Part shown: piece by piece, positions 2,750-14,516 of the stretch | Numbering within the stretch: position 1 is the stretch's first letter | Layout of the letters: every line of letters begins with the position of its first letter | Sequence record: OR062943.1 | Source: Escherichia phage 241Ecol014PP | Length of the DNA: 64,000 bases | Reading direction: 5' to 3' (one strand) | Notes under the pieces: model-generated | Told to the model about the DNA's origin: nothing | Database searches by the model: none | Seen by the model: only the letters and a program-made list of their open reading frames with translations | Program-made: the position numbers and the translations under genes

Positions 2750-2803
2750 ATCTCAACACACCTCTGGTGTAGCAAGGTAGGAGAGTGGCCTACCTTTTAA
2801 GCA

Positions 2804-3301
2804 TTAATCCAGAACAACACCTCCAAACTCTACAAATTTCTTAAGCAACTTGTCAATGGTTTTTGGATTTTGGTCGTACTGGTTGTAGGGGAACGAAGCC
2901 CAAATATTTGAGGTCTTACGTATAGCAGATTTAATATGACCGTTATCTATATCTTCAAGTGCTTTACGTTCCCTGATCAACTGGATCGCCCACTTATCCT
3001 GACTGTCTGGTCCAAAATCCGGCAACTTAAGCTGTTTTTTGTAGTGTTCCCAGTATTTGACAAGAAATTGATATTTACCGCAGGCTGTAGTTCTTTGCCC
3101 TTTTGAGTTAAACACTTTACCAGGGCGACCGTTTGCAAAAGGGTGCGTAGAAAAATCTGTAAAGATTTCAGGTTTTCCGTCCATCCCGTATGCTACAACA
3201 TCGTATCCTCCACATTTGGTGGCAGGGTGGGTTGTTGTTCCCTCTGCCCAGCCAATAAGATCCAAGAAAGCTTTTCGTTGAACATTTTTATCAAGTTTCA
3301 T
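2804..3301 (-). CDS. endolysin, lambda R-like lytic transglycosylase
   Basis: Near-colinear with lambda R as I recall it: QRKAFLD..W.EGT, GYDV, FTD(F/Y)S.HP, G(K/R)YQ(F/L)L, QLKL.DF.P.SQD, RK(T/C)SNIWAS(F/L)P, F(V/K)E(F/A)GG. Confidence 0.8.
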   Translation of the reverse strand: MKLDKNVQRKAFLDLIGWAEGTTTHPATKCGGYDVVAYGMDGKPEIFTDFSTHPFANGRPGKVFNSKGQRTTACGKYQFLVKYWEHYKKQLKLPDFGPDSQDKWAIQLIRERKALEDIDNGHIKSAIRKTSNIWASFPYNQYDQNPKTIDKLLKKFVEFGGVVLD

Positions 3302-3425
3302 TTTTCATACTCTCCAGTTTACTCATAACTAACCCGATCAACAACACTGCGTGGTGTGGTTATGTAGGTGCCAATTGAAAAACCATCATTCAATTGGCTA
3401 CCGTTACCTACTAGACCACCCTACA

Positions 3426-4709
3426 TCATTCCAGAACCTCCCAAGTATCTGGGTTAACATTTCGGACGCAGATACCGACAGGGAATTGGTAGTTGTTGTC
3501 TTCTGTCCTTGCTTGATATTTGAAGGTGACAAACTTGCCGATCATTTCCTGCATCCTGTCATAGCTACGCTCCTCGTGCGTGCCTTTCATCTTCATTTTA
3601 ACAACAACACCCTCCTTGTCAACACAGATAAGAACACCTTCATCATTCTTATCTTTCTCAACGTCAATAACTTTCACCTCTGCGTCGTTGAACTTTTTCC
3701 ATTTCAATGCTTCAGATGTTCGCTGACCATACTCATACTTACCACAGAAGTTACGCATAATGGTACCTTCATATCCTTCAGACATAAATATACCAACAGA
3801 CTCTTCGCACCGATCAACTGTATATGCAAGCTCTGCATCAACAACCTTAATATGATCAAGCATCAAAGAAGAAATAGCACCATTTGCCTCCATAAGATCC
3901 TTACAGCGCCCAGACTCTGTTTCAGGATCCCACCACACCTTATCGCTAGGGATATCGAAAATATGATACTCTAAGTCGTAGCTGCAGTACCCTCCGTAAC
4001 GCAAATCATCACGAACAGGCTCAACATCAACAGGAATGTCCATCTTATTGAAGTTTTTGTATGTTGCTAAACCTGCCTTAATCGCAGCCTGACGGCGTTT
4101 TTTATCTGCCTCATAGTCTTTATCGATCTCGGCCTGAATCTCTTCCTGTGTGCGCCACCGTTTAGCAAGAGACACTATTTTCTGCAAAGGAAGACCATGA
4201 ATGTATAGTTCCCCATCAAGTTGTTTAATCCCAGTGGTAGAATGGAAAGAACGAAGTTGCTCTAAAAGCTTTCCTTGAATAGGGTAGGACTTATTACCAC
4301 GGGAAATAAATTTAGGCTCACCATTTTGGAAAACAACAAGCAGACGAAGGCCATCTAACTTACGCAAGATCCAGCAAGGTAATTTAAGTGCCTTGCCACG
4401 CTTCAGGTAGTCATGCACCAGCATGGGTAAAAGGTCAACACCCTGCTCGCAATCTTCCATGTTTTCAACATACCCCAGACGGACTTGTTTTTCCCACTTA
4501 CTGATCGCTTCCAGCTCGGCCTGTTGCTCAGCTGTAGTTTCATTGGTACGACCCACGTTCTTAGGTGTGCAGATCGTCTCTTTGTATTGCAGTTTACCAT
4601 CAAGCTTGCCAAACTCTACGATAACCTTATCACCATCCGTGAATACTTTCCACTGTTGGTAGCTGCCATCTTTGTTCAGTGCGTACAGTGTTGTTTTGAT
4701 TTGATGCAT
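3426..4709 (-). CDS. ATP-dependent DNA ligase
   Basis: Nucleotidyltransferase motif I KLDGLR (KxDGxR), motif IV EGYEGTIMR, motif V KWKKF; 427 aa. Confidence 0.65.
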   Translation of the reverse strand: MHQIKTTLYALNKDGSYQQWKVFTDGDKVIVEFGKLDGKLQYKETICTPKNVGRTNETTAEQQAELEAISKWEKQVRLGYVENMEDCEQGVDLLPMLVHDYLKRGKALKLPCWILRKLDGLRLLVVFQNGEPKFISRGNKSYPIQGKLLEQLRSFHSTTGIKQLDGELYIHGLPLQKIVSLAKRWRTQEEIQAEIDKDYEADKKRRQAAIKAGLATYKNFNKMDIPVDVEPVRDDLRYGGYCSYDLEYHIFDIPSDKVWWDPETESGRCKDLMEANGAISSLMLDHIKVVDAELAYTVDRCEESVGIFMSEGYEGTIMRNFCGKYEYGQRTSEALKWKKFNDAEVKVIDVEKDKNDEGVLICVDKEGVVVKMKMKGTHEERSYDRMQEMIGKFVTFKYQARTEDNNYQFPVGICVRNVNPDTWEVLE

Positions 4710-4978
4710 TACTCTACCTCTTCCTTAAAAATTTTAAACATCTCTTCTTTACTCATTACCAACCAGTCCCCCATAAAATCAACAAGCCAATCACCCTGGT
4801 ACAAGACTAGGTTACCAAACGGCTCTACAAGCTCACACATACGACGAAGATCTCTGGTCCGAACAGGTGACGATGTAAACACACCTGTATCAATCCACCG
4901 TTGCAGATCAGATACTGATGAAGAGCTTCCGTCAAACTGGTGTGCTTCTACAGGTTTAGCAAGATTAAATAACGGCAT
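4709..4978 (-). CDS. hypothetical protein (89 aa)
   Basis: ORF-track ORF overlapping the ligase start by 1 nt. Confidence 0.35.
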   Translation of the reverse strand: MPLFNLAKPVEAHQFDGSSSSVSDLQRWIDTGVFTSSPVRTRDLRRMCELVEPFGNLVLYQGDWLVDFMGDWLVMSKEEMFKIFKEEVE

Positions 4979-5303
4979 TGCAGTCCTCCTTATCTAATAG
5001 GTCTTTTATCGGGTAAACAAGCAGGTGTGGATCGTAATAATTTATAGTTTTATTCTGCCACACTATGAACTTAATTACAACTAAATTTACCACATCTTTA
5101 TCTCCATGTAGTCCAACACACAGATTTGTCCATATTTTGTGGTTGAATACTTTGCTGTCGATGTAGATTTTAGTGTCAAACTTATCCTCTATCCTGCCTA
5201 TGAGTTTAACCAACTCTTTCATCTGATCCCCAAACACAGCATCGTTTTCAAGATCTCTAGAGTGCTTGTACATAACTATCTGCCTCACTTGCATACTTTC
5301 CAC
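4965..5303 (-). CDS. hypothetical protein (112 aa)
   Basis: ORF-track ORF in the operon; no recognisable motif. Confidence 0.35.
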   Translation of the reverse strand: MESMQVRQIVMYKHSRDLENDAVFGDQMKELVKLIGRIEDKFDTKIYIDSKVFNHKIWTNLCVGLHGDKDVVNLVVIKFIVWQNKTINYYDPHLLVYPIKDLLDKEDCNAVI

Positions 5304-5336
5304 AACAAGTAAAGCCGGGTAATCCCGGCTATGTTG

Positions 5337-6050
5337 TTAAATATACTCTGTTACATCCTTGAAGCTAGAAGGCTTCATGATCTTACCTTTACTGTCAAGA
5401 AATATGATAACTTTATTACCGTTGTAGAATTCTTCCTTAGCAACAAAACCTTCATATCTACCATCAAAGCGTCGCTCAAGATCTTTAATCTCCAACTCGA
5501 TGAGTTGTTCAGCAGGCATATCTGCACTGGCACCGTGTGAATACCGTAGATGGTTGACCCGTGCAAACTTGCTGTCATTAGATTTGAGAACCTTACGCAT
5601 CATCCCGCACACATCGCCGCGAAGCTGGAACAGCAAAGCTGTTGACAACTCTGCTAAGCGGTAAGCGGATGCTCTTTGCTTAGAGGTGTTTTTCGCAGCG
5701 ATCAGTGTATCATAGAACTCACCGATCTTGAACTTAAGACCTCGCGGATTATCAAACAGGTTTGACCACTTTTCGTGATTATCATTAACAAGATAAGCGG
5801 CATAACTTGTGACAACGTGAAGATCGCAGGCCTCTTTTAGCAGGTGATCTCCACCATCACCTTTCTCCAGCTCTTCCAAAACTTCATTGAACTCTTCCTC
5901 AATGAAGCTAAGCTGTAATTCGAATGGTGTGTATGATTTTTTCACTTTAGCTGCCACACGGTTCCAGTTTTCCACCCAGTTGGCAGACCAAAAGTAGTTT
6001 TCAGGCTGAGACAGTTTTTCCAGGTTGTCGATCAGTTTAGTATTCAGCAT
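5337..6050 (-). CDS. MazG-like nucleotide pyrophosphohydrolase domain protein (237 aa)
   Basis: FIEEEFNEVLEELEKGDGGDHLLKEACDLHVV fits the MazG-type E-x-x-E...E-x-x-D helix pair; C-terminal half unassigned. Confidence 0.4.
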   Translation of the reverse strand: MLNTKLIDNLEKLSQPENYFWSANWVENWNRVAAKVKKSYTPFELQLSFIEEEFNEVLEELEKGDGGDHLLKEACDLHVVTSYAAYLVNDNHEKWSNLFDNPRGLKFKIGEFYDTLIAAKNTSKQRASAYRLAELSTALLFQLRGDVCGMMRKVLKSNDSKFARVNHLRYSHGASADMPAEQLIELEIKDLERRFDGRYEGFVAKEEFYNGNKVIIFLDSKGKIMKPSSFKDVTEYI

Positions 6051-6063
6051 TAAAGGTCTCCTT

Positions 6064-6825
6064 TTAAAGTTCCATAAAGTTTTCTACGGTCTCAATGAAT
6101 GTTTTATCAGAGAAAGCGTCAACCGCCCCGTTAAACCAAACTGGGATGCCGCGATCCTCATACTGGTAAATATCACTACGTGAAATTCCATTCTCCTCTA
6201 GATGCTGTGAGTCGTATTTGTTAACGATCAGCAGTTTGGTTCCCTTATTGCAGGCAGGGAATAGTTCCCAGTTAAAATTGATAACTGTGTTGGAACAACC
6301 TACAAGGATAACCATATCATTGCTCGTGAGAGAAGTCAACAGGTCATACATGTCTGTATACTTCGGAGCTACTTCTCCGAAGAACACCACATTAGGCTTA
6401 ACCCAGATATACTTTCCTGGATCTACCTCAGAGTATCCAATGTCCTTAATGACGTTACTTCCTTCATCGTCCTCATAGACTATTTCTGGCAAATACCCGT
6501 GGACATGTAGAATATCTTCATGTTTTACACCAGCACGCTCCAGCAAATCATCTACATTGGTGGTAAGATTGATCACACGGCCAGGCCAGCGGGAATACCA
6601 CTCAGCGATCCGGAGATGCGCAAGGTTAGGATCAACACTGCCCAGAGCTACACGGCGTGCATTGTAAAAGTCATGCACCTTATAGTAGTTCTTGGCAAAG
6701 GTGTGGATGTTGCACACCTCATCGATGCTGAAATTCTCCCACATTGCAGTGCTACCAGATCGGAAAGTGGGAATACCAGATTCAGCGCTCAAACCAGCAC
6801 CGGAGATAATAATCAGTCGTCGCAT
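6064..6825 (-). CDS. SIR2 (sirtuin) family protein lacking the zinc-ribbon
   Basis: GAGLSAESGIPTFRSG, TTNVDDL, catalytic LHVHG, VVFFGE; no CxxC...CxxC module. Confidence 0.75.
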   Translation of the reverse strand: MRRLIIISGAGLSAESGIPTFRSGSTAMWENFSIDEVCNIHTFAKNYYKVHDFYNARRVALGSVDPNLAHLRIAEWYSRWPGRVINLTTNVDDLLERAGVKHEDILHVHGYLPEIVYEDDEGSNVIKDIGYSEVDPGKYIWVKPNVVFFGEVAPKYTDMYDLLTSLTSNDMVILVGCSNTVINFNWELFPACNKGTKLLIVNKYDSQHLEENGISRSDIYQYEDRGIPVWFNGAVDAFSDKTFIETVENFMEL

Positions 6826-6833
6826 AAGTGTCC

Positions 6834-7184
6834 TCAGTAGATGTTTTGTTTAATCTCTATTCCAAACTTTTTAAACGAGTCAGCTGCAAGCATGAATTTA
6901 CGAGCCGCTGATGGATTAGAAGTGTGCACGAAAATCTTCACGTTGTCAACTACAGGAGGCTTACCAAATACAAATTTTTCCTCTAACATGCAGAAACAGT
7001 CGTACCCTTCTAAGACTTCTCCTAAATCGCTGTCAAAATGCCACTCAGAAACGCGCCTGTAGAGCTTTCTATTATCGTTAATAAAATCCATGAACTCAGA
7101 AGAGTTCTTCAGCCAAAGAGCATTTTGGATTCCGTAATTTGACGGATCTCTCAAGTCATCCAGCCACACAATCAACTTCTTCAT
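6834..7184 (-). CDS. hypothetical protein (116 aa), translationally coupled to RNA ligase
   Basis: Start ATG 7184-7182 overlaps the RNA ligase stop TGA 7183-7181 (ATGA); GAGGA upstream. The track's longer start (7214) lies inside the ligase gene. Confidence 0.4.
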   Translation of the reverse strand: MKKLIVWLDDLRDPSNYGIQNALWLKNSSEFMDFINDNRKLYRRVSEWHFDSDLGEVLEGYDCFCMLEEKFVFGKPPVVDNVKIFVHTSNPSAARKFMLAADSFKKFGIEIKQNIY

Positions 7185-8116
7185 TGCATATAGTCCTCGT
7201 TGTGAAAATAGCAATCAAGTATCTCACGGCGTTCCTGCTCCAGGAGGCAGTTCCACACATCTTCTGTGTAATTGCTACGAATGAAGTTTACCATGCCGTA
7301 AAACTCTTCGTCAATACGTTTAAAGATATCATCATCCCAAATCTTCCAAGCTTTACCCCTCATTACGGCCTTCCGTGCCAAATAGTATGGAGACTTGATC
7401 TTCAGCTGCAGGTCATAAGGGTAGTAAGGCTTACGGATCATATACCCTTCGCCCCTTGTTTCTGCGGCTAATTCTTTTGCATAGCTGAACGGGATTTCAC
7501 GCACAGTGAGAGGACGTTTTGCACCAAGGTATTTGGCAATCCCATCTAAAGCTGCTTCTGGTAGCATTATTCCAGAATCATTATATCTGCAACCTATCAA
7601 ATATGCGCCATGGTCTTCTTGAACAATATGCGGATCTGAAGGGTGACAAATTTCAAACATGAATGTCATGTTTTCATTGCCCATAACCTTCTTGATAAGA
7701 TCTAAATTACCACATTGCTCTTGGATGGTTTCCTTTGCAAGGTTACAATATGGAGAATCAAGAGACCCGGTTGTTGAGAACAATAGGTCACCTTTATGAG
7801 ATGATACCACACCAAGGAATCCGTTCTTTTTCTCTACCGCAGTCACAAGCTTATTGTCAGGCAGGTTGGTGGAGTTTTCTCCCAAGTTAAACACTTTTGT
7901 GAAGGGCCATGCCACAACATTTCCTTCATTACCTACAACAATGCCTCGGCACTCCAGTAAACGAGGGGACAAATACCATAAATTGTTGTAAAATACTTTT
8001 CTAGCATATTTATAGATCTTTAACCCCAGATCTGGGTAATACCTACTGGTTACAAGACCTTTGTCAACTAGGTCGTCTGCATTAAAATACTTCATCATAC
8101 GTTCCTCATTTGTCAT
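7181..8116 (-). CDS. RNA ligase (Rnl1/Trl1-like nucleotidyltransferase)
   Basis: Motif I VEKKNGF (KxNG), motif IV EGYMIRK, motif V LKIKS; divergent from the kinase/phosphoesterase genes. Confidence 0.55.
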   Translation of the reverse strand: MTNEERMMKYFNADDLVDKGLVTSRYYPDLGLKIYKYARKVFYNNLWYLSPRLLECRGIVVGNEGNVVAWPFTKVFNLGENSTNLPDNKLVTAVEKKNGFLGVVSSHKGDLLFSTTGSLDSPYCNLAKETIQEQCGNLDLIKKVMGNENMTFMFEICHPSDPHIVQEDHGAYLIGCRYNDSGIMLPEAALDGIAKYLGAKRPLTVREIPFSYAKELAAETRGEGYMIRKPYYPYDLQLKIKSPYYLARKAVMRGKAWKIWDDDIFKRIDEEFYGMVNFIRSNYTEDVWNCLLEQERREILDCYFHNEDYMQ

Positions 8117-8159
8117 TTTGTCAGTCTATCCTGCCACACAAATAACCTAGTGTCAACAC

Positions 8160-8188
8160 TTGAAATTAACAAAACAGTTAGGTATACT
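8160..8188 (+). promoter_or_regulatory. sigma70-like promoter TTGAAA-17-TATACT
   Basis: In the 100-bp divergent region between RNA ligase (minus) and kinase (plus). Confidence 0.45.
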
Positions 8189-8216
8189 ATCGTTGAAATT
8201 AAAACGGAGGGTCACT

Positions 8217-8627
8217 ATGTCTAAAATGCTATATATCGTGCGTGGTCTACCAGGGTCTGGCAAATCAACACTGGCAAATGCGCTATCTTTAGAGGGTCTG
8301 TATCCACATTTTGAGAACGACATGTTCTGGTATGACGATGACGGCAATTACAACTGGGATGCAAGTAAAGTAACACTCGCAGCGAAATGGTGCAAAGATA
8401 ACGTAGAAGATATGATGCGTATGGGATACGACCGTATCGTGGTAAGTAATACGTTTACAAAAGAAAAACATGTGCAGGAATATGTTGACATGGCAATCAG
8501 TCATGGGTATAGTTATACCGTGATCGTGGTTGAAAACCGCCACGGTAATAAAAGCATTCATGATGTTCCAGACAAGGTTGTGGATCGTATGGAACGCCAG
8601 CTTAAAAACTGCATTAAACTTAAATGA
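8217..8627 (+). CDS. P-loop polynucleotide kinase-like protein
   Basis: Walker A GLPGSGKST near the N-terminus; ATG 8217 follows GGAGGG. The track's 8160 start would sit on the promoter. Confidence 0.55.
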   Translation: MSKMLYIVRGLPGSGKSTLANALSLEGLYPHFENDMFWYDDDGNYNWDASKVTLAAKWCKDNVEDMMRMGYDRIVVSNTFTKEKHVQEYVDMAISHGYSYTVIVVENRHGNKSIHDVPDKVVDRMERQLKNCIKLK

Positions 8628-8634
8628 GGAATGT

Positions 8635-9189
8635 ATGAAATACTTTGTAACAAGCGACACACACTTTCTCCACCAGCGGGTCATGGAGTTTGATTCATGT
8701 CAAAAACACAGATCTCAGTATGATCACAATCTTGACAGTATGAATGCGGGAATCATCGCCGAATGGAACTCTGTTGTGTCACCTGCAGACACTGTGTTCC
8801 ACTTGGGAGATATTGCGTGCACTAATGATAAGAATATCAACAACTTACTTCCAGATATTCTAAATATGTTGAACGGACATATTATTCTTGTTCGTGGCAA
8901 CCATGACACAAGGACGACTGTCAGAATTATGAAAGAGTTCGGTCATGAGGTTGTAGATTATTACGAGCTTCGCCACAACAAGAATTTGATCTGTATGAGC
9001 CATTACCAGTTTGCAAAGTGGAACAGAAAGCCTCACGGATCAGTCCAACTGTTCGGTCATGCTCACGGAACCACACAACAGTTGTTTGGCAGACAGTTTG
9101 ATGTCGGTTGGGATGTGTGGGGGAGACTCTTACCATTAGAAGAGGCATACCGTATTGCAATGAGTTTTGCTATTGACAGCGGGGAGTAA
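8635..9189 (+). CDS. calcineurin-like metallophosphoesterase
   Basis: SDTHF (D-x-H), GDIACTN (GD), GNHD (GNH[DE]), GHAHG; start placed at ATG 8635 because the D-x-H motif is N-terminal. Confidence 0.65.
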   Translation: MKYFVTSDTHFLHQRVMEFDSCQKHRSQYDHNLDSMNAGIIAEWNSVVSPADTVFHLGDIACTNDKNINNLLPDILNMLNGHIILVRGNHDTRTTVRIMKEFGHEVVDYYELRHNKNLICMSHYQFAKWNRKPHGSVQLFGHAHGTTQQLFGRQFDVGWDVWGRLLPLEEAYRIAMSFAIDSGE

Positions 9190-9236
9190 TCCCTGCTATT
9201 TTAAAGAAAATTGCCACACAAGGAGAATCAGGAGAT

Positions 9237-9587
9237 ATGAAAGATGGGGATAAGCTGCTATATCTTAAAGTCCCCCTTGAAATACTATCTATGTCAAAAG
9301 TTTTGAATGACACAACTGGGGAGGTTGTTGTTCTTGACTTGTATGACAAGATCGTATACTGCTACCTGCACAACTGGTATAAGCTTGGAGGAAGTTCACG
9401 CTTCACACCCAGCACAAGGAAAATTGCAGCAGATGTTGGAATAAAGAAAACAAAAGCAGCAGCGTGCGTTAAAACTTTAGAATGTGCGGGAGTGGTTGAA
9501 ATATCCACACAAGGGAGAGGTAAAAGATGCACATTTTCCAAAGTTTTGCCACCAGAAGAAGTTATTCGAATGTCAACAACTGGTTAG
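9237..9587 (+). CDS. small DNA-binding protein, helix-turn-helix-like (116 aa)
   Basis: RKIAADVGIKKTKAAACVKTLECAGVVEI looks like an HTH/wHTH segment; GGAGA RBS; iteron array lies 75 bp downstream. Confidence 0.35.
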   Translation: MKDGDKLLYLKVPLEILSMSKVLNDTTGEVVVLDLYDKIVYCYLHNWYKLGGSSRFTPSTRKIAADVGIKKTKAAACVKTLECAGVVEISTQGRGKRCTFSKVLPPEEVIRMSTTG

Positions 9588-9662
9588 ACCAGTAAAAACT
9601 TAAATATCTGTACTATAAGGATTCGTATGTTTTATGTTCGCTCTGGAACAGAGGTTAGTAAC

Positions 9663-9743
9663 TGTCCGTGATACGGACACTACTGTCCGTCACGCGGACA
9701 CATCTGTCCGTAATACGGACACTAACTGTCCGTGATACGGACA
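9663..9743. repeat. four tandem 17-bp palindromes TGTCCGT-N3-ACGGACA at 21-22 bp phasing
   Basis: Units at 9663-9679, 9684-9700 (one mismatch), 9705-9721, 9727-9743; perfect 7-bp arms. Confidence 0.85.
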
Positions 9744-9890
9744 CATAAAGAATATAACTAAAATAACTAAATAATAAAAAACAAAAGATCTAGTACTTAT
9801 GGTACTAAGTACATATACTTAACTTATGTAGAATATATTAGATCCTAAGTACTATGTTTTAAATTTATTACTTACTATGGGTAGTGTCGG
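9744..9890. other. AT-rich tract with GTACTTA/TAAGTAC inverted repeats
   Basis: agtacttatggtactaagtac and cctaagtactatg immediately after the iterons. Confidence 0.5.
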
Positions 9891-10235
9891 CCCTTCATTG
9901 GCACTCGCCTACGAGGGGCGAGATGCCGGGCCTCCCTGGTGCACACAATAACAGAAGTGCATACATGCAGGTCTGTTAACATGTGTGGGAGCGAAGCGAT
10001 AGCGCAGGCCAAAGTCCGAGCACTGATGTGGACCACCGACGAAAGCTTGCCAGCGCCGGAAGGAGTCGGTTGAGAGTCTCCCGCGCGAGCTTGGATGAAG
10101 TTTATGTGTGGAAACGGACAAGAAGGCCCCTAAATCGCTCCACAGCTATATAAACTATATCAGGTAAGGCAATCGCACCAGTTTGATAGAAAAGCTCGTT
10201 ACAAAGCGATACAGTGAGTTTTTCTATAACTTGAA
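9890..10235. other. GC-rich non-coding island
   Basis: Sharp GC rise versus flanks; only ORF is an implausible 70-aa antisense frame (9909-10121). Confidence 0.35.
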
Positions 10236-10247
10236 GAGGAGGCAGCT

Positions 10248-10826
10248 ATGAGTCCACGCAAAGATGACCGTGAAAAGATTGCAAAACGTTATCAGAATGA
10301 AGAACAGATGGAGAAAACTTTCAAGTGGAAGCCAGGTTTCCAGCGTAATCATTCTAACGCTCGTGATCGTAAGCATCCGGATAAGTGGTTAACACCGCCA
10401 AATGATGGCATTCAGGTTGGTGATGAGAAGGAGCTGTCACCAGGAAAAGATGGCAACTACATTCGCACTAAGGAAGCAGGTCCAAAGGATGACAGCTATC
10501 TTGTAGATAAGGTTCTTGACGGTATTGATGCAGGTGTTGACACTATGCGAAACCTTTTTCTTGGTTGGTATCGTACAGGGTTTTTCGACATCAAGGCTAT
10601 TCGTCGTGTTTGTGATATTAAAAAGTCTGCCTATGATGATGACTCTCTACATCGCACTCTGAGACAATACTCAGAGAGATACGGTCATCCAGTTATCACT
10701 CTTGACGATATTAACGAAGTGATGTATCATGCAGAGGTTGTTGCAGGTAGATTCGGTGATGCATATCTCGGTATTCTTTCTGCAAAAGATGAGGTAATGT
10801 TAAATAAAATTTACTATGAACGCTGA
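10248..10826 (+). CDS. hypothetical protein (192 aa), charged N-terminal region
   Basis: Strong RBS GAAGAGGAGG before the ATG; no recognisable motif. Confidence 0.5.
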   Translation: MSPRKDDREKIAKRYQNEEQMEKTFKWKPGFQRNHSNARDRKHPDKWLTPPNDGIQVGDEKELSPGKDGNYIRTKEAGPKDDSYLVDKVLDGIDAGVDTMRNLFLGWYRTGFFDIKAIRRVCDIKKSAYDDDSLHRTLRQYSERYGHPVITLDDINEVMYHAEVVAGRFGDAYLGILSAKDEVMLNKIYYER

Positions 10827-10836
10827 GGAGCGCTTA

Positions 10837-11025
10837 ATGAACAATCCGGTAGCAAAGAACTGTAATAAGTTCAACAAGTCTGCAATTCACACTGACAGGA
10901 AAAAGAGCTGGTCTCCTGACATTGACGAGGAGCTTGAGAGTTACTTTGAAGACCTGGTCACTAATGCAGATGAGGTTGCGATTAAAGAATACGCAGACAG
11001 GAAGGATAAGGCCGGAATCTGTTGA
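10837..11025 (+). CDS. hypothetical small protein (62 aa)
   Basis: In-frame ATG at 10837 after GAGGAG; the track's 10816 start overlaps the upstream stop. Confidence 0.3.
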   Translation: MNNPVAKNCNKFNKSAIHTDRKKSWSPDIDEELESYFEDLVTNADEVAIKEYADRKDKAGIC

Positions 11026-11051
11026 CAAAAATAGTGTTACCTGATAAGATC
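11023..11051 (+). promoter_or_regulatory. sigma70-like promoter TTGACA-17-TAAGAT
   Basis: -35 at 11023-11028, 17-bp spacer, TGa-extended -10 at 11046-11051. Confidence 0.5.
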
Positions 11052-11101
11052 TGCAATATGATGTGATACAATTTTAACTTACGAGGTCTACAGGTAATGC
11101 T

Positions 11102-11344
11102 ATGTTTAAGGTTAAGCTCGTTTTTCGTTCCATGAATGAGGATTATTTAGAAGATGAAGGTGAATTTCGTGCACTGGATGATGCAATAGATTTTGCCAAC
11201 GACTTAGCTTGTATGAATACAGGTTATGGGCTATGCTGTTGGGATGGTGGTGTTCAGATCGGTGATAGCAAGATCTTCTACTTCTACCCTGAGCCTGATA
11301 ACAAACAAATTAAGTATGTTTTATTTATTTGTGCTTTACAATGA
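11102..11344 (+). CDS. hypothetical protein (80 aa)
   Basis: ORF-track ORF downstream of the 11023 promoter. Confidence 0.35.
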   Translation: MFKVKLVFRSMNEDYLEDEGEFRALDDAIDFANDLACMNTGYGLCCWDGGVQIGDSKIFYFYPEPDNKQIKYVLFICALQ

Positions 11345-11399
11345 GGTTGTTTTCGTGTATCATGATGAATATCCAATTTAAAGATGAATTTGATGGCTT

Positions 11400-11633
11400 T
11401 ATCTCCGGATGCTTTGAAACAGGGTTCGGAGAAGACTGAGTTCCCCTTAGAGGGCTTGATAGTGCACCACACTTAAAATGGTAGGGGCAGCCAGCACATG
11501 ACGATGTGACCCCAGCCAACCTGTAACAAGGTCGAGCCGAAGCGCGGGTAATAGGCCTCTGGTAACCCACTTGTTGGGTCTTGCTGGTCCAGGACGCTGG
11601 ACAAGTCGCAGGGAATACCACCCTGCGGCGAAC
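11400..11633. other. GC-rich non-coding island with several hairpins
   Basis: Hairpins cacat-gacg-atgtg, gtccag-gacg-ctggac, cgcaggg-aatacca-ccctgcg; overlapping ORFs look spurious. Confidence 0.35.
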
Positions 11634-11662
11634 TTGACAATCAGTATTTGCTATGATAAAAT
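11634..11662 (+). promoter_or_regulatory. sigma70-like promoter TTGACA-17-TAAAAT
   Basis: Consensus -35 11634-11639, 17-bp spacer, TGa-extended -10 11657-11662. Confidence 0.55.
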
Positions 11663-11690
11663 CCACCTATCACGTGATAATGGAGGAAAC

Positions 11691-12029
11691 ATGGCGGATA
11701 CAACTAAAAAGCGTCGCCGTAGAGGCAGACCTCTGAAAGAGGAGTCCAACGCCATTCAGCTAGAGAAGAACATCCTTGATATGAAGGAATCTTTTATAGC
11801 GATGGTTCCAGAAGCTCACAAAGTTTTAAGAGAGCTGATGTTGGACCCGAAAACCAAACAAAATATTCGTCAAAGCATTGCAGAGTATGTTCTTGATAAG
11901 GCAGACCGAATGCAGGAAGAATATGATGAGATGTTTGGTGAAGAGGAAGAGGTGGTAGTAGAAGAGGCTGAAAAACCAGCACCTTTTATGCCATTTACTA
12001 CAGAAATACAGCCTGTTAGCAATAGCTAA
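11691..12029 (+). CDS. hypothetical DNA-binding-like protein (113 aa): basic N-terminus, acidic C-terminus
   Basis: MADTTKKRRRRGRPLKE then helical and acidic regions; could be a small terminase subunit or regulator, unresolved. Confidence 0.4.
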   Translation: MADTTKKRRRRGRPLKEESNAIQLEKNILDMKESFIAMVPEAHKVLRELMLDPKTKQNIRQSIAEYVLDKADRMQEEYDEMFGEEEEVVVEEAEKPAPFMPFTTEIQPVSNS

Positions 12030-12038
12030 AATATTTTC

Positions 12039-12067
12039 TTGACAAACTTTGCTTAACAGTGTAATAT
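12039..12067 (+). promoter_or_regulatory. sigma70-like promoter TTGACA-17-TAATAT ahead of the tRNA cluster
   Basis: -35 12039-12044, 17-bp spacer, -10 12062-12067. Confidence 0.5.
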
Positions 12068-12126
12068 TGTAAACATGGTCTCCCACCTTTTCTGGCGGCT
12101 AAGGTGTAAAAGAAAGCCACCCAGTG

Positions 12127-12200
12127 CCCTGTTAGCTTAGTGGATAAAGCAGCGGCCTTCTAAGCCGTTGACACTGGTTCGAGTCCAGTACGGGGTGCCA
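12127..12200 (+). tRNA. tRNA-Arg (anticodon TCT)
   Basis: Hand-folded cloverleaf: acceptor GCCCTGT/ACGGGGT, D stem GCTT/AAGC, anticodon stem GCGGC/GCCGT, loop CTTCTAA, T arm ACTGG-TTCGAGT-CCAGT, encoded CCA. Confidence 0.7.
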
Positions 12201-12330
12201 AGTTCTTTTTAATGTAGCTTACTTTAGCAGAGTAAATCTTCGGCAAGTGGCGGTAACCACTTTACCGATACCTCATAGTTAGTGGTGAGAACACTAGCTA
12301 TTTTAAAAAGAATTTAAATATTAGTATTTA

Positions 12331-12418
12331 GGTGAGTTAATTCCGTAGGGGTAGCGGGGCAGACTGTAAATCTGTTATCATTGCGATTCGGGTGGTTCGA
12401 CTCCATCACTCACCACCA
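12331..12418 (+). tRNA. tRNA-Tyr (anticodon GTA), long variable arm
   Basis: Acceptor GGTGAGT/ACTCACC, anticodon loop CTGTAAA, T arm GGTGG-TTCGACT-CCATC, CCA encoded. Confidence 0.7.
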
Positions 12419-12532
12419 AATTTATATTTTTAAATGCATAAATCATACAGATAATGGCATTGATATTTATCGTCGTTTATACTAGTCACTAACTGCTCGA
12501 AAATCAGTGTCATTATCAGTATTGTTTATAAA

Positions 12533-12623
12533 AGAGGGTAGGGAGCAATGGTGCTCAAGCGGTCTTGAAAACCGTCCCGTTGAGGATGACTCGATGATGG
12601 TTCGATTCCATTATCCTCTGCCA
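12533..12623 (+). tRNA. tRNA-Ser (anticodon TGA), long variable arm
   Basis: Acceptor AGAGGGT/ATCCTCT, anticodon stem GCGGT/ACCGT, loop CTTGAAA, T arm GATGG-TTCGATT-CCATT, CCA encoded. Confidence 0.7.
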
Positions 12624-12721
12624 TATTGTTGACCTTGTAATTAAGCGAAAGCCGGAAGCAGAACCGGATTATCAAATGTTACAGTCGTCATCGCCGACTA
12701 GCAACATGGTCAACATACTGA

Positions 12722-12818
12722 GCTAGGTAAGCCCTTTGGCAAGGGCGAGGATTTTTAATCCTGAAAATAGACGAGGTAGTCGTTGAATACATAGGTGGTT
12801 CGATTCCACCGCCTAGCA
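12722..12818 (+). tRNA. tRNA-like gene, non-canonical (about 97 nt); anticodon uncertain, possibly TTT
   Basis: Good acceptor (GCTAGGT/GCCTAGC), D arm and T arm (GGTGG-TTCGATT-CCACC), but anticodon arm has a 4-bp stem, the variable region is about 30 nt and no CCA is encoded. Confidence 0.35.
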
Positions 12819-12825
12819 CCTTTTT

Positions 12826-12901
12826 GCTGATGTAGCACAATTGGTAGTGCAATTGATTTGTAATCAATAGGTTGCAGGTTCAAGTCCTGCCATCAGCACC
12901 A
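12826..12901 (+). tRNA. tRNA-Thr (anticodon TGT)
   Basis: Acceptor GCTGATG/CATCAGC, anticodon stem ATTGA/TCAAT, loop TTTGTAA, T arm GCAGG-TTCAAGT-CCTGC, CCA encoded. Confidence 0.75.
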
Positions 12902-12902
12902 T

Positions 12903-12977
12903 GGCCCTGTAGCTGGAAGGTTCAAGCAAGCGACTCATAATCGCCAGACGGTGGTTCAATTCCACCCAGGGCCACCA
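12903..12977 (+). tRNA. tRNA-Met (anticodon CAT); initiator versus elongator not resolved
   Basis: Acceptor GGCCCTG/CAGGGCC, anticodon loop CTCATAA, T arm GGTGG-TTCAATT-CCACC, CCA encoded; D arm imperfect. Confidence 0.6.
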
Positions 12978-12988
12978 AATAATAAATA

Positions 12989-13411
12989 CTCCGCGTAGCT
13001 CAGCTTGGTAGAGATAATCAAAGATGCACAAATGCAGTCGTTGTGGGGAAGAAGATCCATGTAAATTTTATGGTCATAAAAAGACTATATGTGGGAAATG
13101 TCACAATGAGTACACCATGAATCTTGGGAGGCAGAAACGACAGTATGCTGTAGACAAGTTAGGCGGTAAATGTATCAATTGTGGGTTCGATAAATGGATT
13201 GTTTCTTTAGATATTCACCATTTAGACCCTAAAATTAAAGACTCTAAATTTGCTCAAATGAGAGGTTGGAGTCTGCAAAGAATTGATAATGAAATTAAAA
13301 ACTGTGTATTACTTTGTAGAAATTGTCATGCTGCCGTACATGCAGGACTTTTAGAACTACCATAACTTTGGGATCAGGAGGTCGAGTGTTCGAATCACTC
13401 CGTGGAGACCA
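12989..13411 (+). tRNA. tRNA gene interrupted by an HNH endonuclease ORF; anticodon not assignable
   Basis: 5' part CTCCGCG-TA-GCTCAGCTTGGTAGAG (12989-13014) and 3' part GAGTG-TTCGAAT-CACTC-CGTGGAG-A-CCA (13384-13411) have complementary acceptor strands, but about 355 bp lies between them. Confidence 0.45.
13024..13365 (+). CDS. HNH endonuclease (113 aa) inserted in a tRNA gene
   Basis: Cys-rich N-terminus, DIHHLDP...N...LLCRNCHAAVH HNH core; ATG is 4 nt after the tRNA D-arm. Confidence 0.6.
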   Translation: MHKCSRCGEEDPCKFYGHKKTICGKCHNEYTMNLGRQKRQYAVDKLGGKCINCGFDKWIVSLDIHHLDPKIKDSKFAQMRGWSLQRIDNEIKNCVLLCRNCHAAVHAGLLELP

Positions 13412-13457
13412 CTTTCAGTTATACTTTAAACATATACAAACAAAAGGAACCTTTAAA

Positions 13458-13727
13458 ATGTATACACTTAAAATTGTAGAGCGTGTAAATCCAACCCATA
13501 CCGTAGATTTTCGTGACGATTTCAATCCTCTGGCTGTAAATCTTCGAGAGTCATATCATGAACTCAGCTGCGATGCAGTGGTGGTCTTTTTTGAAGACAA
13601 CTCTGAAGGGGCGGTAGCTTGTGTTGTTGATAGTGAGCAGAAGTTTTATATTTACAGAGATGTAGATGCATACTTGATGAATGAAAATGCAGTTACTGTT
13701 AGAATCATCCACCGAGTGCCTCGATAA
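13458..13727 (+). CDS. hypothetical protein (89 aa)
   Basis: ATG 13458 after AAGGAA; the track's 13323 start lies inside the tRNA 3' half. Confidence 0.4.
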   Translation: MYTLKIVERVNPTHTVDFRDDFNPLAVNLRESYHELSCDAVVVFFEDNSEGAVACVVDSEQKFYIYRDVDAYLMNENAVTVRIIHRVPR

Positions 13728-13780
13728 GTATTAGTCTCCTTTTAGTTAGTTTCGATCTATTTAGGTTACTCAATTTTAAC

Positions 13781-13816
13781 CCGCCCCGTTAGCTGTATAG
13801 CTGCGGGGTTTTTTTC
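13781..13816 (+). terminator. intrinsic terminator
   Basis: CCCCG...CGGGG hairpin followed by TTTTTTT. Confidence 0.55.
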
Positions 13817-13833
13817 GTTTCTGGAGCCTTAAA

Positions 13834-14232
13834 ATGATTTCAGTTTTAACATGGCTGAGCAGGTATAGAGGGATCATAAAAGGTTTAGTTTTTGCAGCTG
13901 CGATAGGTACAGCTTATCTTGGGGCCGTGTATTGGTTTAACTCTAAGCTTAATGATGCCTACCAAGAAGGTGTGTCAGCAACAGAGTTAAAGTGGGAACG
14001 GATCCTTGATCAGCAACAAAAGCAGGCCGACAAAATTAAAATGGGCCACGCAGAGGAGGTTAAAAACCTTGAAAAATCCCTTTCTGACCTGCAGGATAAA
14101 TTAAATATGGCTGAGAAGGCAGGTAAAGAAAAGCAGATTATTTACCTCCAATCACCTGAGGGTAAGAAGTCAACACTCCCTGATCAGCTTATAGATATTT
14201 ATAATGAGAGTATTAATCAGGAGGGTCGATGA
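13834..14232 (+). CDS. i-spanin (Rz-like)
   Basis: N-terminal transmembrane helix (GLVFAAAIGTAYLGAVYWF) then charged coiled-coil; overlaps the next gene by ATGA. Confidence 0.6.
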   Translation: MISVLTWLSRYRGIIKGLVFAAAIGTAYLGAVYWFNSKLNDAYQEGVSATELKWERILDQQQKQADKIKMGHAEEVKNLEKSLSDLQDKLNMAEKAGKEKQIIYLQSPEGKKSTLPDQLIDIYNESINQEGR

Positions 14233-14516
14233 GAGTTGCTGCACTGTTTATTGTGTGCTTGTTATTGTGTGGGTGTGCAACCAGCGTTGAGAGAGAATAC
14301 AAGATTGACCCTCCAGATGTAGGAAGGTTGATTGTTAAACCCCCGGAAGGTGCCATGAAACCACCTGCTAAAGCTATACCTTTAAAGAAAGGTGCGCCAG
14401 ATGCGGTGAATTCTGGCATTATGAGGGATAATAATCTGTCTTGTAGCAATGATAGAGCTAAATTGATCATTTTGCAAGACTATATTAGAACACTGTTTCC
14501 AAAGGAGAGAGGTTAA
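14229..14516 (+). CDS. o-spanin (Rz1-like proline-rich outer-membrane lipoprotein)
   Basis: Signal plus lipobox (LLLCGCA) followed by Pro-rich mature region (DPPDVGRLIVKPPEGAMKPPAKAIP); separate ORF, not embedded. Confidence 0.65.
   Translation: MRVAALFIVCLLLCGCATSVEREYKIDPPDVGRLIVKPPEGAMKPPAKAIPLKKGAPDAVNSGIMRDNNLSCSNDRAKLIILQDYIRTLFPKERG

What the first reader, a model, noticed from the sequence alone, without database searches (positions are those of the whole stretch)
2804..14516. Lysis genes are dispersed and no holin is evident
The R-like endolysin sits in the minus-strand early operon while the Rz/Rz1-like spanin pair sits 10 kb away on the other strand just before the terminase. No small multi-pass membrane protein accompanies either. 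The only membrane-protein candidates of 60 aa or more are 52308-52622 and 53767-54033 in the tail-fibre block.
Basis: inference. Interest (0 to 1): 0.45.

Follow-up and report, generated by a model that had tools for sequence, protein, structure and literature searches.

The report
Probable missing holin of rV5-like phages
In this rV5-like coliphage the lysis genes really are scattered, a gap already noted in the literature, and the "missing" holin is most likely the 88-residue membrane protein in the tail-fibre block, because its relatives sit between endolysin and spanin genes in other phages.

Summary
The window is a Vequintavirus (rV5-like, about 96% nucleotide identity). A soluble lambda-R-like endolysin lies at 2804-3301(-). 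A separated i-/o-spanin pair lies 10.5 kb away at 13834-14516(+), abutting the terminase. No small membrane ORF sits beside either.

It is next to the endolysin in rV5, but it looks like a secreted small beta-protein, not a holin. Several papers already say the rV5-type holin is unidentified, so the observation itself is known.

New here: the 88-aa ORF 53767-54033 belongs to PHROG 1322, together with Pfam DUF2644 proteins. Members of this family lie immediately next to signal-less endolysins of at least six types and/or Rz/Rz1-type spanins. This is seen in nine independent phage contexts and in 27 of 28 Mu-like prophages of Pasteurellaceae.

The protein has two weakly hydrophobic helices and a variable charged C-terminal tail, and it sits in the late operon. 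Its constant upstream neighbour, 52308-52622, has an N-terminal membrane helix plus a coiled coil. That is the architecture of the Mu gp25 releasin family, with a weak profile match to it.

Best reading: a T4-style dispersed lysis system with 53767-54033 as the holin. Confidence is about 0.6, and nothing has been tested experimentally.

The parts
2804..3301 (-). Endolysin: a lambda R-like lytic transglycosylase, soluble, with no signal or SAR (signal-anchor-release) segment.
   Evidence: PDB 1AM7 at E=6.5e-35 over residues 4-163. phrog_90 'endolysin' at 3e-51. No hydrophobic window found.
1718..1924 (-). 68-aa rV5 gp086-like protein. It looks like a signal peptide followed by a conserved 45-aa beta-domain with two invariant Cys. 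Probably a secreted periplasmic protein, not a holin.
   Evidence: In alignment A1 the N-terminal hydrophobic stretch varies while residues 23-68 are nearly invariant. The AlphaFold2 model has a low-confidence N-terminal helix and a four-strand beta-domain at pLDDT 85-93. No fold match at E<0.03. Essentially restricted to Vequintavirus.
1988..2749 (-). HNH homing-endonuclease gene inserted between the endolysin and the 68-aa ORF.
   Evidence: Annotated as an HNH endonuclease in phage SophiaRose. Absent at this position in rV5 and inoa.
13834..14232 (+). i-spanin: N-terminal membrane helix plus a periplasmic coiled coil.
   Evidence: phrog_4297 'Rz-like spanin' at 1.5e-49. Hydrophobic segment at residues 14-32. 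Annotated as i-spanin in relatives.
14229..14516 (+). o-spanin: an outer-membrane lipoprotein with lipobox LLLCGC. It overlaps the i-spanin by 4 nt and abuts the terminase start.
   Evidence: phrog_1267 'Rz-like spanin' at 1.8e-22. Sequence read. rV5 is in the 'separated' spanin architecture group of PMC6139136.
52308..52622 (+). 104-aa rV5 gp031-like protein. Predicted N-out membrane helix (about residues 6-27) followed by a 77-aa cytoplasmic coiled coil. Releasin-like architecture; proposed partner or regulator of the holin.
   Evidence: phrog_5345 at 6e-48. GTG start preceded by a strong AAGAGGAGG ribosome-binding site. Charge distribution. hhalign against DUF2730 gives probability 91.9%, E=7.1e-7, over 93 columns. 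Lies upstream of the gp029-like gene in 30 of 30 related loci.
52709..53755 (+). Tail-fibre paralogue of 50657-51697. It sits between the two membrane-protein genes, where sister genera carry a 4-TMD protein instead.
   Evidence: ORF list. PVP-SE1 gene order. The 4-TMD gene is present in 22 of 22 non-rV5-type loci and absent from the window and from rV5.
53767..54033 (+). 88-aa rV5 gp029-like protein, the proposed holin. It has a short N-terminal helix, two weakly hydrophobic helices (22-43 and 49-74) joined by a 5-residue acidic loop, and a variable charged C-terminal tail.
   Evidence: phrog_1322 at 2.7e-32. Family alignments. AlphaFold2 helices. Wimley-White scores of -5.3 and -5.0 kcal/mol. 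AAGAGGG ribosome-binding site. Relatives lie in lysis cassettes.

Best explanation
This phage has a T4-style dispersed lysis system.

Shown:
- The soluble R-like endolysin (2804-3301) lies in the minus-strand DNA-metabolism unit.
- The spanin pair (13834-14516) and the two small membrane proteins of the tail-fibre block lie in the plus-strand structural unit.

Inferred:
- The 88-aa product of 53767-54033 is the holin. It would insert in the inner membrane as an N-in/C-in helical hairpin and accumulate harmlessly.
- At a set time it would form holes large enough to let the cytoplasmic endolysin reach the murein. The spanins then disrupt the outer membrane.
- The 104-aa product of 52308-52622 has a membrane helix tethering a cytoplasmic coiled coil, the architecture of the Mu gp25 releasin family. 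It probably works with the holin, as a timing or assembly partner or as an antiholin-like regulator.
- The timing of expression, hole formation, hole size and the role of the 104-aa protein are all inferred.
For: 1. The window protein, the cassette-borne relatives and a bona fide Pfam DUF2644 protein all match one family, phrog_1322, over their full length. The E-values are 2.7e-32 for the window protein, 4e-19 to 2e-24 for the relatives, and 1.4e-24 for the DUF2644 protein. An independent hhalign of 43 against 26 sequences gives probability 82.9% and E=9.2e-6. Controls give 0.2-3%, and a reversed control 0.2%.

2. Family members lie immediately beside endolysins and/or spanins, usually with 4-nt overlaps. 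The cases are:
- L041: Peptidase_M15_4, then member, then i-spanin with an embedded o-spanin.
- L052: Amidase_2, then member, then i-spanin with an embedded o-spanin.
- L096/L097: Peptidase_M15_3, then member, then i-spanin with an embedded o-spanin.
- L095: Peptidase_M15_4, then member.
- L040: member, then Rz (PF03245) with an embedded o-spanin.
- L043: member, then a DUF5675 protein.
- L062: member, then an HS6-type endolysin.
- Ralstonia phage RS138: endolysin, then member, then spanin.
- Pseudomonas phage Bise: endolysin, then member, then spanin.

3. DUF2644 follows the amidase endolysin in 27 of 28 Pasteurellaceae Mu-like prophage loci, and a spanin-like DUF2681 gene follows it in 21 of them.

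4. All partner endolysins lack an N-terminal hydrophobic segment, so they need a hole-forming holin.

5. The protein has holin-like features. It is 75-90 aa long. The helical core is conserved. The C-terminal tail is hypervariable and charged, 10-50 aa long. AlphaFold2 predicts two helices. Basic residues sit at both ends and none in the loop.

6. It lies in the late structural operon with its own ribosome-binding site. Chamblee et al. note that all experimentally confirmed holins are late genes.

7. It is conserved across Vequintavirinae and phi92-like phages, in 358 phage records.

8. No other candidate lies near the endolysin or spanins.

9. The gp031-like gene accompanies it in 30 of 30 loci. 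It matches DUF2730 at probability 91.9%, E=7.1e-7, over its full length. Another TMD-plus-coiled-coil family scores 48% and the reversed control 1.6%.

10. Mu-like phages with soluble endolysins carry a phrog_1322 member plus a protein with an N-terminal membrane helix and a coiled coil. Examples are Bise, L041 and the Pasteurella phage AFS-2018a.
Against: - There is no experimental evidence for any member of phrog_1322 or DUF2644.
- No database or GenBank record names a member 'holin'. PHROGs files the family under 'moron/host takeover'.
- In this genome the gene is next to neither the endolysin nor the spanins.
- Its two helices are only weakly hydrophobic (Kyte-Doolittle 1.05 and 0.58). The PVP-SE1 annotators' predictors called only one TMD.
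- The AlphaFold2 model is of modest confidence (mean pLDDT 64).
- The window protein does not reach Pfam's DUF2644 threshold. There is no hit for it, and a relative scores 14.4 bits against a cut-off of 22.
- Some cassettes also carry a second single-pass coiled-coil protein that could be the true hole-former.
- Some family members sit in structural or replication modules with no lysis neighbours.
- The gp031-DUF2730 link is weak by HMMER. Reciprocal PHROG hits are only E=0.01-0.07, among many other coiled-coil hits.
Confidence: 0.6

Rival explanations
1. The holin is the homologue of rV5 ORF129 (locus tag rv5_gp124), as proposed by Kropinski et al. 2013. It is 78 aa with two strong TMDs and a Lys/Arg-rich C-terminus. 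It lies outside this window, in the same transcription unit as the endolysin.
For: The published proposal rests on TMHMM and Phobius predictions (PMC3606486). My own scan finds two hydrophobic segments (Kyte-Doolittle 2.62 and 2.53) and a charged tail.
Against: - The argument is topology only.
- The gene lies among about 88 small genes of the non-structural region, not in a late structural operon.
- It is confined to the genus Vequintavirus and absent from sister genera that share the spanins.
- No relatives were found in IMG/VR.
- Its family, phrog_10061, has no known function.
- No GenBank record names it a holin.
Confidence: 0.12
2. The two tail-fibre-block membrane proteins have a non-lysis role, such as superinfection exclusion, receptor masking, or fibre assembly or ejection. 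The real holin is then another unrecognised protein, or lysis is holin-independent. One holin-independent route would use the signal-peptide-bearing SleB-like hydrolase rV5 gp002.
For: - Their position among tail-fibre genes is conserved in 30 of 30 loci.
- Some records annotate them as 'structural protein' or 'tail fiber protein'.
- PHROGs files phrog_1322 under 'moron/host takeover'.
- rV5 encodes many other small membrane proteins.
- rV5 also encodes an exported SleB-like hydrolase next to rIIA.
Against: - This does not explain why the same family sits between soluble endolysins and spanins in nine or more unrelated small phages and in 27 of 28 prophages.
- The 'structural' labels appear to come from gene position only.
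- T4's holin gene t also lies at the end of its tail-fibre cluster (my own knowledge, not tested here).
- A soluble R-like endolysin still needs a route across the inner membrane.
Confidence: 0.2
3. The 68-aa ORF 1718-1924 beside the endolysin is the holin or an antiholin. It would be a single-TMD protein, like T4 T or RI.
For: - It is immediately downstream of the endolysin in rV5 (64-bp gap), with a strongly hydrophobic N-terminus.
- Several records annotate it as a 'putative membrane protein'.
Against: - The hydrophobic segment is the least conserved part and ends in signal-peptidase-like motifs (VFA/G, AWS/G).
- The C-terminal 45 aa, with two invariant Cys, are nearly invariant.
- AlphaFold2 predicts a compact beta-domain.
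- This is the pattern of a secreted protein, not of a hole-former.
- There are only 11 clusters in 5.8 billion proteins, all rV5-like.
Confidence: 0.04

Closest known systems
Phage T4 lysis gene organisation (e, t, pseT.3/pseT.2, rI, rIII)
   Same: - It is a large virulent myovirus whose endolysin, holin and spanins are unlinked.
- The holin gene lies at the end of the tail-fibre gene cluster and is expressed late.
- The spanins have the separated architecture.
- rIIA and rIIB are present in rV5.
(T4 facts are from my own knowledge; rV5 facts are.)
   Different: - There is no sequence relation to the T holin, which has one TMD and a large periplasmic domain. Pfam and NCBIfam gave no hit.
- The candidate here is an 88-aa two-helix hairpin with almost no periplasmic part, so RI-type lysis inhibition through a periplasmic domain is not expected.
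Pfam DUF2644 (PF10841) proteins of Mu-like Pasteurellaceae prophages
   Same: - They fall in the same PHROG, 1322.
- They share the same length, the same two-helix layout, and an 'LS..K'-type N-terminal motif followed by a 'PE(L/W)' motif.
- hhalign probability is 82.9%.
- They are accompanied by a protein with a membrane helix and a coiled coil (DUF2730).
   Different: - The window protein scores below Pfam's threshold.
- DUF2644 genes sit between the endolysin and the spanins, whereas here the gene is about 50 kb from the endolysin.
- DUF2644 itself has no assigned function, and no paper in the library mentions it.
Mu gp25 releasin / DUF2730 (Chamblee et al. 2022, PMC9239132)
   Same: The 104-aa protein has the same size and the same predicted N-out membrane helix with a C-in coiled coil. 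It aligns over its full length at hhalign probability 91.9%.
   Different: - It gives no Pfam DUF2730 hit.
- This is not a transposable phage.
- The gene is not within five genes of the endolysin.
- The endolysin here has no SAR domain, so the releasin mechanism shown for Mu cannot apply as such.
Class II holins / pinholin S21-68
   Same: Both are small, with two TMDs, a predicted N-in/C-in topology, a weakly hydrophobic first helix and a charged C-terminus (the S21 sequence was recalled from memory).
   Different: There is no sequence similarity. Pinholins serve SAR endolysins, whereas the partners of this family are all signal-less. A large-hole (canonical) mode is therefore inferred.

Membership tests
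Lambda R-type endolysin (lytic transglycosylase) | Full-length sequence similarity to lambda lysozyme, including the catalytic Glu motif. | tested here: met
   PDB 1AM7 and 3D3D at E about 7e-35 over residues 4-163. WAEGT aligns with WSEGT.
Lambda R-type endolysin (lytic transglycosylase) | Cytoplasmic, with no signal or SAR sequence, and therefore holin-dependent. | tested here: met
   No hydrophobic window. Maximum Kyte-Doolittle score of 0.05 in the first 60 aa.
Two-component spanin (Rz/Rz1-type) | An i-spanin with an N-terminal TMD plus an adjacent o-spanin lipoprotein with a lipobox Cys. | tested here: met
   PHROG 'Rz-like spanin' hits at 1.5e-49 and 1.8e-22. TMD at residues 14-32, lipobox LLLCGC, and a 4-nt overlap. 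There is no Pfam Phage_lysis hit, so this is a functional class and not the lambda Rz family.
Holin (functional class) | A small protein with at least one TMD and a charged hydrophilic C-terminus. | tested here: met
   88 aa. AlphaFold2 helices at 22-43 and 49-74. Wimley-White scores of -5.3 and -5.0 kcal/mol, but Kyte-Doolittle only 1.05 and 0.58. Variable charged tail.
Holin (functional class) | Gene adjacent to the endolysin and/or spanin genes. | tested here: not met
   In this window the gene is about 50 kb from the endolysin and about 39 kb from the spanins. The criterion is met only for relatives in other phages.
Holin (functional class) | Late expression. | not testable with these tools
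   Inferred only, from the gene's position inside the tail-fibre operon with its own ribosome-binding site.
Holin (functional class) | Lethal, energy-poison-triggerable permeabilisation of the inner membrane that releases the endolysin. | not testable with these tools
   This needs expression and complementation experiments.
Pfam DUF2644 (PF10841) | Score at or above Pfam's gathering threshold (22 bits). | tested here: not met
   No hit for the window protein even at E<=10. A relative, P0120, scores 14.4 bits at E=0.05.
PHROG 1322 (includes DUF2644 proteins) | A significant full-length match to the family profile. | tested here: met
   Window protein at 2.7e-32. DUF2644 protein of phage AFS-2018a at 1.4e-24. 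Cassette-borne members at 4e-19 to 2e-24.
DUF2730 / releasin (Mu gp25) | A match to Pfam PF10805. | tested here: not met
   None of the 9 family members hits DUF2730 at E<=1. PHROG cross-hits are only E=0.01-0.07.
DUF2730 / releasin (Mu gp25) | About 100 aa, with an N-out TMD and a C-in coiled coil, and profile-level similarity. | tested here: inconclusive
   The architecture is met. hhalign gives probability 91.9% and E=7.1e-7, against 48% for another TMD-plus-coiled-coil family and 1.6% for the reversed control.
DUF2730 / releasin (Mu gp25) | Found in a transposable phage, within five genes downstream of the endolysin, and releasing a SAR endolysin. | tested here: not met
   This is a virulent 138-kb myovirus. 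The gene is about 49 kb from the endolysin. The endolysin has no SAR domain.
T4 holin T family | Sequence similarity to T, with one TMD and a large periplasmic domain. | tested here: not met
   No candidate gave a Pfam or NCBIfam hit, and the architecture differs.

The most novel reading that the evidence does not exclude
PHROG 1322 / DUF2644-like proteins would be a widespread, so far unannotated holin family. They would work as a two-component module with a membrane-tethered coiled-coil protein of the releasin type (DUF2730, phrog_462 or phrog_5345).

This module would be shared by transposable Mu-like phages that have soluble endolysins and by large virulent myoviruses, including Vequintavirinae, phi92-like phages and T4-like Stenotrophomonas phages.

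If so, releasin-type proteins would be general holin partners rather than a Mu-specific device for SAR endolysins. Mu itself would be a derived form that lost the holin.
Probability: 0.3. Interest if true: 0.6.

Novelty: new member of a known kind. Interest (0 to 1): 0.4.

Why it matters
rV5-like phages (Vequintavirinae) are widely used in phage therapy, biocontrol and typing. Their genome papers repeatedly report that no holin could be identified.

A well-supported candidate gives annotators a name for a protein found in more than 350 phage records. It also gives lysis researchers a directly testable gene pair.

It offers an answer to a question Chamblee et al. left open: what DUF2730-type proteins do in phages whose endolysins lack SAR domains. 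It would also show that weakly hydrophobic two-helix proteins can be missed by routine TMD-based holin searches.

The dispersal of the lysis genes and the 'missing holin' are themselves already known.

Tried and rejected
- Pfam and NCBIfam scans of all candidates gave no holin family and no DUF2644 or DUF2730 hit.
- A first hhalign of a shallow gp029 alignment against a single DUF2644 sequence gave nothing. Only deeper alignments and the PHROG profile showed the link.
- BLASTP of gp031 against Mu gp25 gave only E=0.021. The first hhalign, 9 sequences against 3, gave only 27%.
- The 145-aa TMD-plus-coiled-coil protein of L041 does not match the DUF2730 or gp031 profiles. It belongs to phrog_462. 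I therefore dropped the claim that it is a DUF2730 protein.
- The 102-aa gene upstream of the phi92-type family member is a tailspike N-terminal domain, not gp031-like. The gp031 partnership is therefore not universal.
- The 68-aa ORF beside the endolysin was rejected as a holin. Its fold search gave no informative match.
- Small unlisted ORFs of 20-59 aa were scanned, and none is a free-standing membrane ORF.
- rV5 ORF129 was examined as the published candidate. It is genus-restricted and has no informative relatives.
- I looked for a small TMD ORF overlapping the rV5 SleB-like gene, as reported for CB7, and found none.
- A literature search for DUF2644 returned nothing.
- The promoter and terminator scan of the tail-fibre block found no more sites than shuffled sequence gives.

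Full report
**What the window is.**
The region 2700-14600 is 95-97% identical at the nucleotide level to many Vequintavirus genomes (rV5, SophiaRose, inoa, CM1 and others). The window corresponds to roughly 10.3-74.3 kb of rV5, reverse-complemented. It therefore covers a little under half of a genome of about 138 kb.

**Checking the observation: endolysin and spanins.**
- ORF 2804-3301(-) is a 165-aa homologue of the lambda R lytic transglycosylase. It matches PDB 1AM7 at E=6.5e-35 over residues 4-163, with WAEGT aligned to the catalytic WSEGT. It matches phrog_90 'endolysin' at 3e-51.
- It has no hydrophobic segment at all, so it is a soluble cytoplasmic enzyme.
- ORFs 13834-14232 and 14229-14516 match 'Rz-like spanin' PHROGs at 1.5e-49 and 1.8e-22. 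The first has an N-terminal membrane helix and the second a lipobox (LLLCGC). They overlap by 4 nt.
- The second spanin gene ends where the terminase ORF starts, at 14516.
- Kongari et al. list rV5 among the 'separated' spanin architectures (PMC6139136).
- The endolysin sits with the DNA ligase, Sir2-like and RNA ligase genes on the minus strand. The spanins sit 10.5 kb away on the plus strand.

**Checking the observation: nearby small ORFs.**
- A six-frame scan with a greedy gene map found no free-standing ORF of 20-59 aa with a hydrophobic segment near either locus.
It has a strongly hydrophobic N-terminus and lies 880 bp downstream of the endolysin.
- An HNH endonuclease gene (1988-2749) is inserted between the two in this window. 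In rV5 and inoa they are 64 bp apart.

**What is already published.**
- The Gotham (PMC7471380) and KPP-1 (PMC9862379) papers say the same.
- The CB7 paper states that in CB7, rV5 and PVP-SE1 the spanins are not in a lysis cassette but lie next to the large terminase gene (PMC7344957).
- The rV5 paper proposed ORF129, a 78-aa protein with two TMDs, as a holin separated from the lysin 'as in phage T4'. The proposal rested on topology alone (PMC3606486). That gene lies outside this window.
- The dispersal and the 'missing holin' are therefore known.

**The 68-aa ORF is probably not a holin.**
- In an alignment of its 11 known clusters the hydrophobic N-terminus is the variable part. It ends in signal-peptidase-like motifs.
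- Residues 23-68, with two invariant Cys, are almost invariant.
- AlphaFold2 gives a low-confidence N-terminal helix and a confident four-strand beta-domain. The fold search found nothing informative.
- This is the pattern of a secreted periplasmic protein.

**The 88-aa ORF 53767-54033.**
- It matches phrog_1322 at 2.7e-32.
- It is conserved in 358 phage records across Vequintavirinae and phi92-like phages.
- Alignments show a conserved core, with the motif SHTK(L/F)WSN and two helices. A hypervariable charged C-terminal tail of 10-50 aa follows.
- AlphaFold2 predicts helices at 3-11, 22-43 and 49-74 and a disordered tail. Mean pLDDT is 64.
- The two long helices are weakly hydrophobic. Kyte-Doolittle scores are 1.05 and 0.58. 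Wimley-White octanol scores are -5.3 and -5.0 kcal/mol. This is comparable to the SAR helix of pinholin S21-68, whose sequence I recalled from memory.
- The weak hydrophobicity probably explains why routine TMD-based holin searches passed over it.
- Basic residues lie at both ends and none in the five-residue loop, which predicts an N-in/C-in topology.
- The gene has its own AAGAGGG ribosome-binding site inside the tail-fibre operon.

**Relatives of the 88-aa protein in other phages.**
A pattern scan of IMG/VR with the family alignment, a profile search of 5.8 billion proteins, and tblastn of GenBank phages recovered distant members. Outside the large myoviruses they sit in canonical lysis cassettes:

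| Locus or phage | Gene order around the family member |
|---|---|
| L041 (Mu-like) | Peptidase_M15_4/VanY, member, i-spanin with an embedded proline-rich lipoprotein, a TMD-plus-coiled-coil protein, winged-helix protein, TerS, TerL |
| L052 | Amidase_2, member, i-spanin with embedded o-spanin |
| L096/L097 | Peptidase_M15_3, member, i-spanin with embedded o-spanin |
| L095 | Peptidase_M15_4, member, TMD protein |
| L040 | member, Rz (PF03245) with embedded o-spanin |
| L043 | member, DUF5675 protein |
| L062 | member, HS6-type endolysin |
| Ralstonia phage RS138 | endolysin, member, Rz-like spanin |
| Pseudomonas phage Bise | M15 endolysin, member, i-/o-spanin, TMD-plus-coiled-coil protein, winged-helix protein, TerS |

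All these members match phrog_1322 at 4e-19 to 2e-24.

**The partner endolysins.**
- They come from at least six unrelated families.
- All lack an N-terminal hydrophobic segment.
- A small membrane protein that keeps company with non-homologous soluble endolysins and with spanins is the classical signature of a holin. The lack of signal sequences argues for a large-hole holin rather than a pinholin.

**Link to DUF2644.**
- One homologue carries the NR name 'DUF2644'.
- In the Pasteurella Mu-like phage AFS-2018a the gene after the amidase endolysin is a strong DUF2644 match (4.5e-33). DUF2681 (spanin-like), DUF2730, a winged-helix protein and TerS follow it.
- That DUF2644 protein matches phrog_1322 over its full length at 1.4e-24.
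- hhalign of 43 gp029-type sequences against 26 DUF2644 sequences gives probability 82.9% and E=9.2e-6. Controls give 0.2-3%, and the reversed control 0.2%.
- In 27 of 28 Pasteurellaceae prophage loci DUF2644 directly follows the amidase, and in 21 of them a DUF2681 gene follows it.
- The window protein itself does not reach Pfam's threshold. I therefore file it under PHROG 1322, as a DUF2644-like superfamily member, and not as a Pfam DUF2644 member.
- No paper in the library mentions DUF2644. No record found names any member a holin.

**The 104-aa ORF 52308-52622.**
- It has a GTG start behind a strong AAGAGGAGG ribosome-binding site.
- It has an acidic N-terminus, one membrane helix and a 77-aa coiled coil that begins with a cluster of basic residues. 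This predicts an N-out/C-in topology.
- It lies 0.5-1.2 kb upstream of the gp029-type gene in all 30 Vequintavirinae-type loci examined.
- In 22 of 22 non-rV5-type loci a 4-TMD protein (phrog_7451) lies between the two genes. In rV5-type genomes, including this window, a duplicated tail-fibre gene (52709-53755) takes that place.
- The architecture is that of Mu gp25, the 'releasin' (DUF2730). Chamblee et al. describe that family as N-out/C-in and found only in transposable phages. They place it within five genes downstream of the endolysin, and note that it also occurs in phages whose endolysins lack SAR domains. Its role in those phages is unknown (PMC9239132).
- Profile comparison of 31 sequences against 11 gives probability 91.9% and E=7.1e-7 over 93 columns. 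Another TMD-plus-coiled-coil family scores 48% over 35 columns, and reversed sequences 1.6%.
- HMMER-level cross-hits are weak, at E=0.01-0.07 among many coiled-coil hits. Pfam gives no DUF2730 hit.
- I therefore treat homology as probable but unproven. The likeness in architecture is shown.

**Mechanism proposed.**
- Shown: the gene content, the positions, the family relations and the contexts in other phages.
- Inferred: the endolysin accumulates in the cytoplasm. Late in infection the 88-aa protein accumulates in the inner membrane as a hairpin, together with the 104-aa tethered coiled-coil protein.
- Inferred: at triggering the 88-aa protein forms holes that release the endolysin. The i-/o-spanin complex then removes the outer membrane.
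- The layout parallels T4. There e, t and the spanin genes are unlinked, and t lies at the end of the tail-fibre cluster (my own knowledge).

**Rival explanations.**
- ORF129 of rV5 has a textbook class II topology. However, it is restricted to the genus and lies among small non-structural genes. It also has no informative relatives.
- A non-lysis role for the tail-fibre-block proteins cannot be excluded for this genome. It does not explain the cassette contexts elsewhere.
- Some cassettes also hold a coiled-coil protein with a C-terminal TMD upstream of the endolysin. The hole-former could therefore be a two-protein system.
- rV5 also has an exported SleB-like hydrolase next to rIIA, outside the window. 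Its role in lysis is open.

**Verdict.**
- This is a new candidate family within a known kind of protein (holins), not a new kind of system.
- Everything about function rests on comparative inference.

Noticed in passing
window 14516-16946: The large terminase gene is split into 14516-14944 and 15858-16946, with an HNH/recombination endonuclease ORF (15160-15750) between the parts. This matches the intron-interrupted TerL reported for rV5 and LL12. SophiaRose has a three-part version.
   Followed up: partly
window 1988-2749 (-): A 253-aa HNH endonuclease gene is inserted between the endolysin and the 68-aa ORF. It is absent at this site in rV5 and inoa and present in SophiaRose. It looks like a mobile homing-endonuclease insertion that splits a conserved gene pair.
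   Followed up: partly
window 1718-1924 (-): This is a small, probably secreted protein: a variable signal peptide followed by an invariant 45-aa beta-domain with two Cys. In most relatives it is encoded right after the endolysin. Its function is unknown. A periplasmic inhibitor or superinfection-exclusion role is only a guess.
   Followed up: yes
window 12126-13365: The tRNA array contains Arg, Ser, an odd 99-nt tRNA, Thr and Met. ARAGORN calls a 4-base anticodon for the odd one, and SophiaRose annotates it as tRNA-Stop(tta). tRNA-Tyr and tRNA-Pro of rV5 were not detected here. An HNH ORF (13024-13365) follows the array, where relatives have tRNA-Pro.
   Followed up: no
window 50657-51697 and 52709-53755: These are two paralogous tail-fibre genes of about 347 aa. 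The second occupies the slot where 22 of 22 sister-genus loci carry a 4-TMD membrane protein (phrog_7451, PVP-SE1 gp43) between the gp031-like and gp029-like genes. That protein is absent from this window and from rV5.
   Followed up: partly
window 52632-52653: A terminator-like hairpin (AGAACGG...CCGTTCT) lies directly after the stop codon of the 104-aa gene, inside the tail-fibre operon. The T-run is weak, and the scan found no more such sites than shuffled sequence gives.
   Followed up: no
window 9600-10250: A stretch of about 650 bp has no convincing ORF. It lies between the transcriptional-regulator-like gene and the next plus-strand gene. Relatives annotate repeat regions here.
   Followed up: no
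GenBank MG0656xx records: About 20 records named 'Campylobacter phage' are 96% identical to this coliphage type over 12 kb. They are probably mislabelled or contaminant assemblies.
   Followed up: no
L102 (Stenotrophomonas phage Moby) 2336-2719; L044-L066: In T4-like Stenotrophomonas phages and in about 120-150-kb metagenomic phages, phrog_1322 members are lone ORFs on the opposite strand inside replication modules. They are often unannotated. Some carry an extra N-terminal TMD and a long acidic tail.
   Followed up: partly
rV5 NC_011041 1980-2480 (outside the window): This is a second peptidoglycan hydrolase, SleB-like (TIGR02869 at 1.1e-12; phrog_938 'endolysin'). It has a strongly hydrophobic signal-peptide-like N-terminus and is encoded next to rIIA. 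Its role in lysis, or in entry or another function, is unresolved.
   Followed up: partly
L095 319-669, L096 2598-2990, L043 3119-3756, L040 1146-1484, L100 3523-3744: Several phrog_1322-containing cassettes also encode a protein with an N-terminal coiled coil and a C-terminal TMD. This is an XhlA-like layout, the mirror image of the gp031 and releasin layout. It suggests a recurring partnership between this family and a tethered coiled-coil protein.
   Followed up: partly
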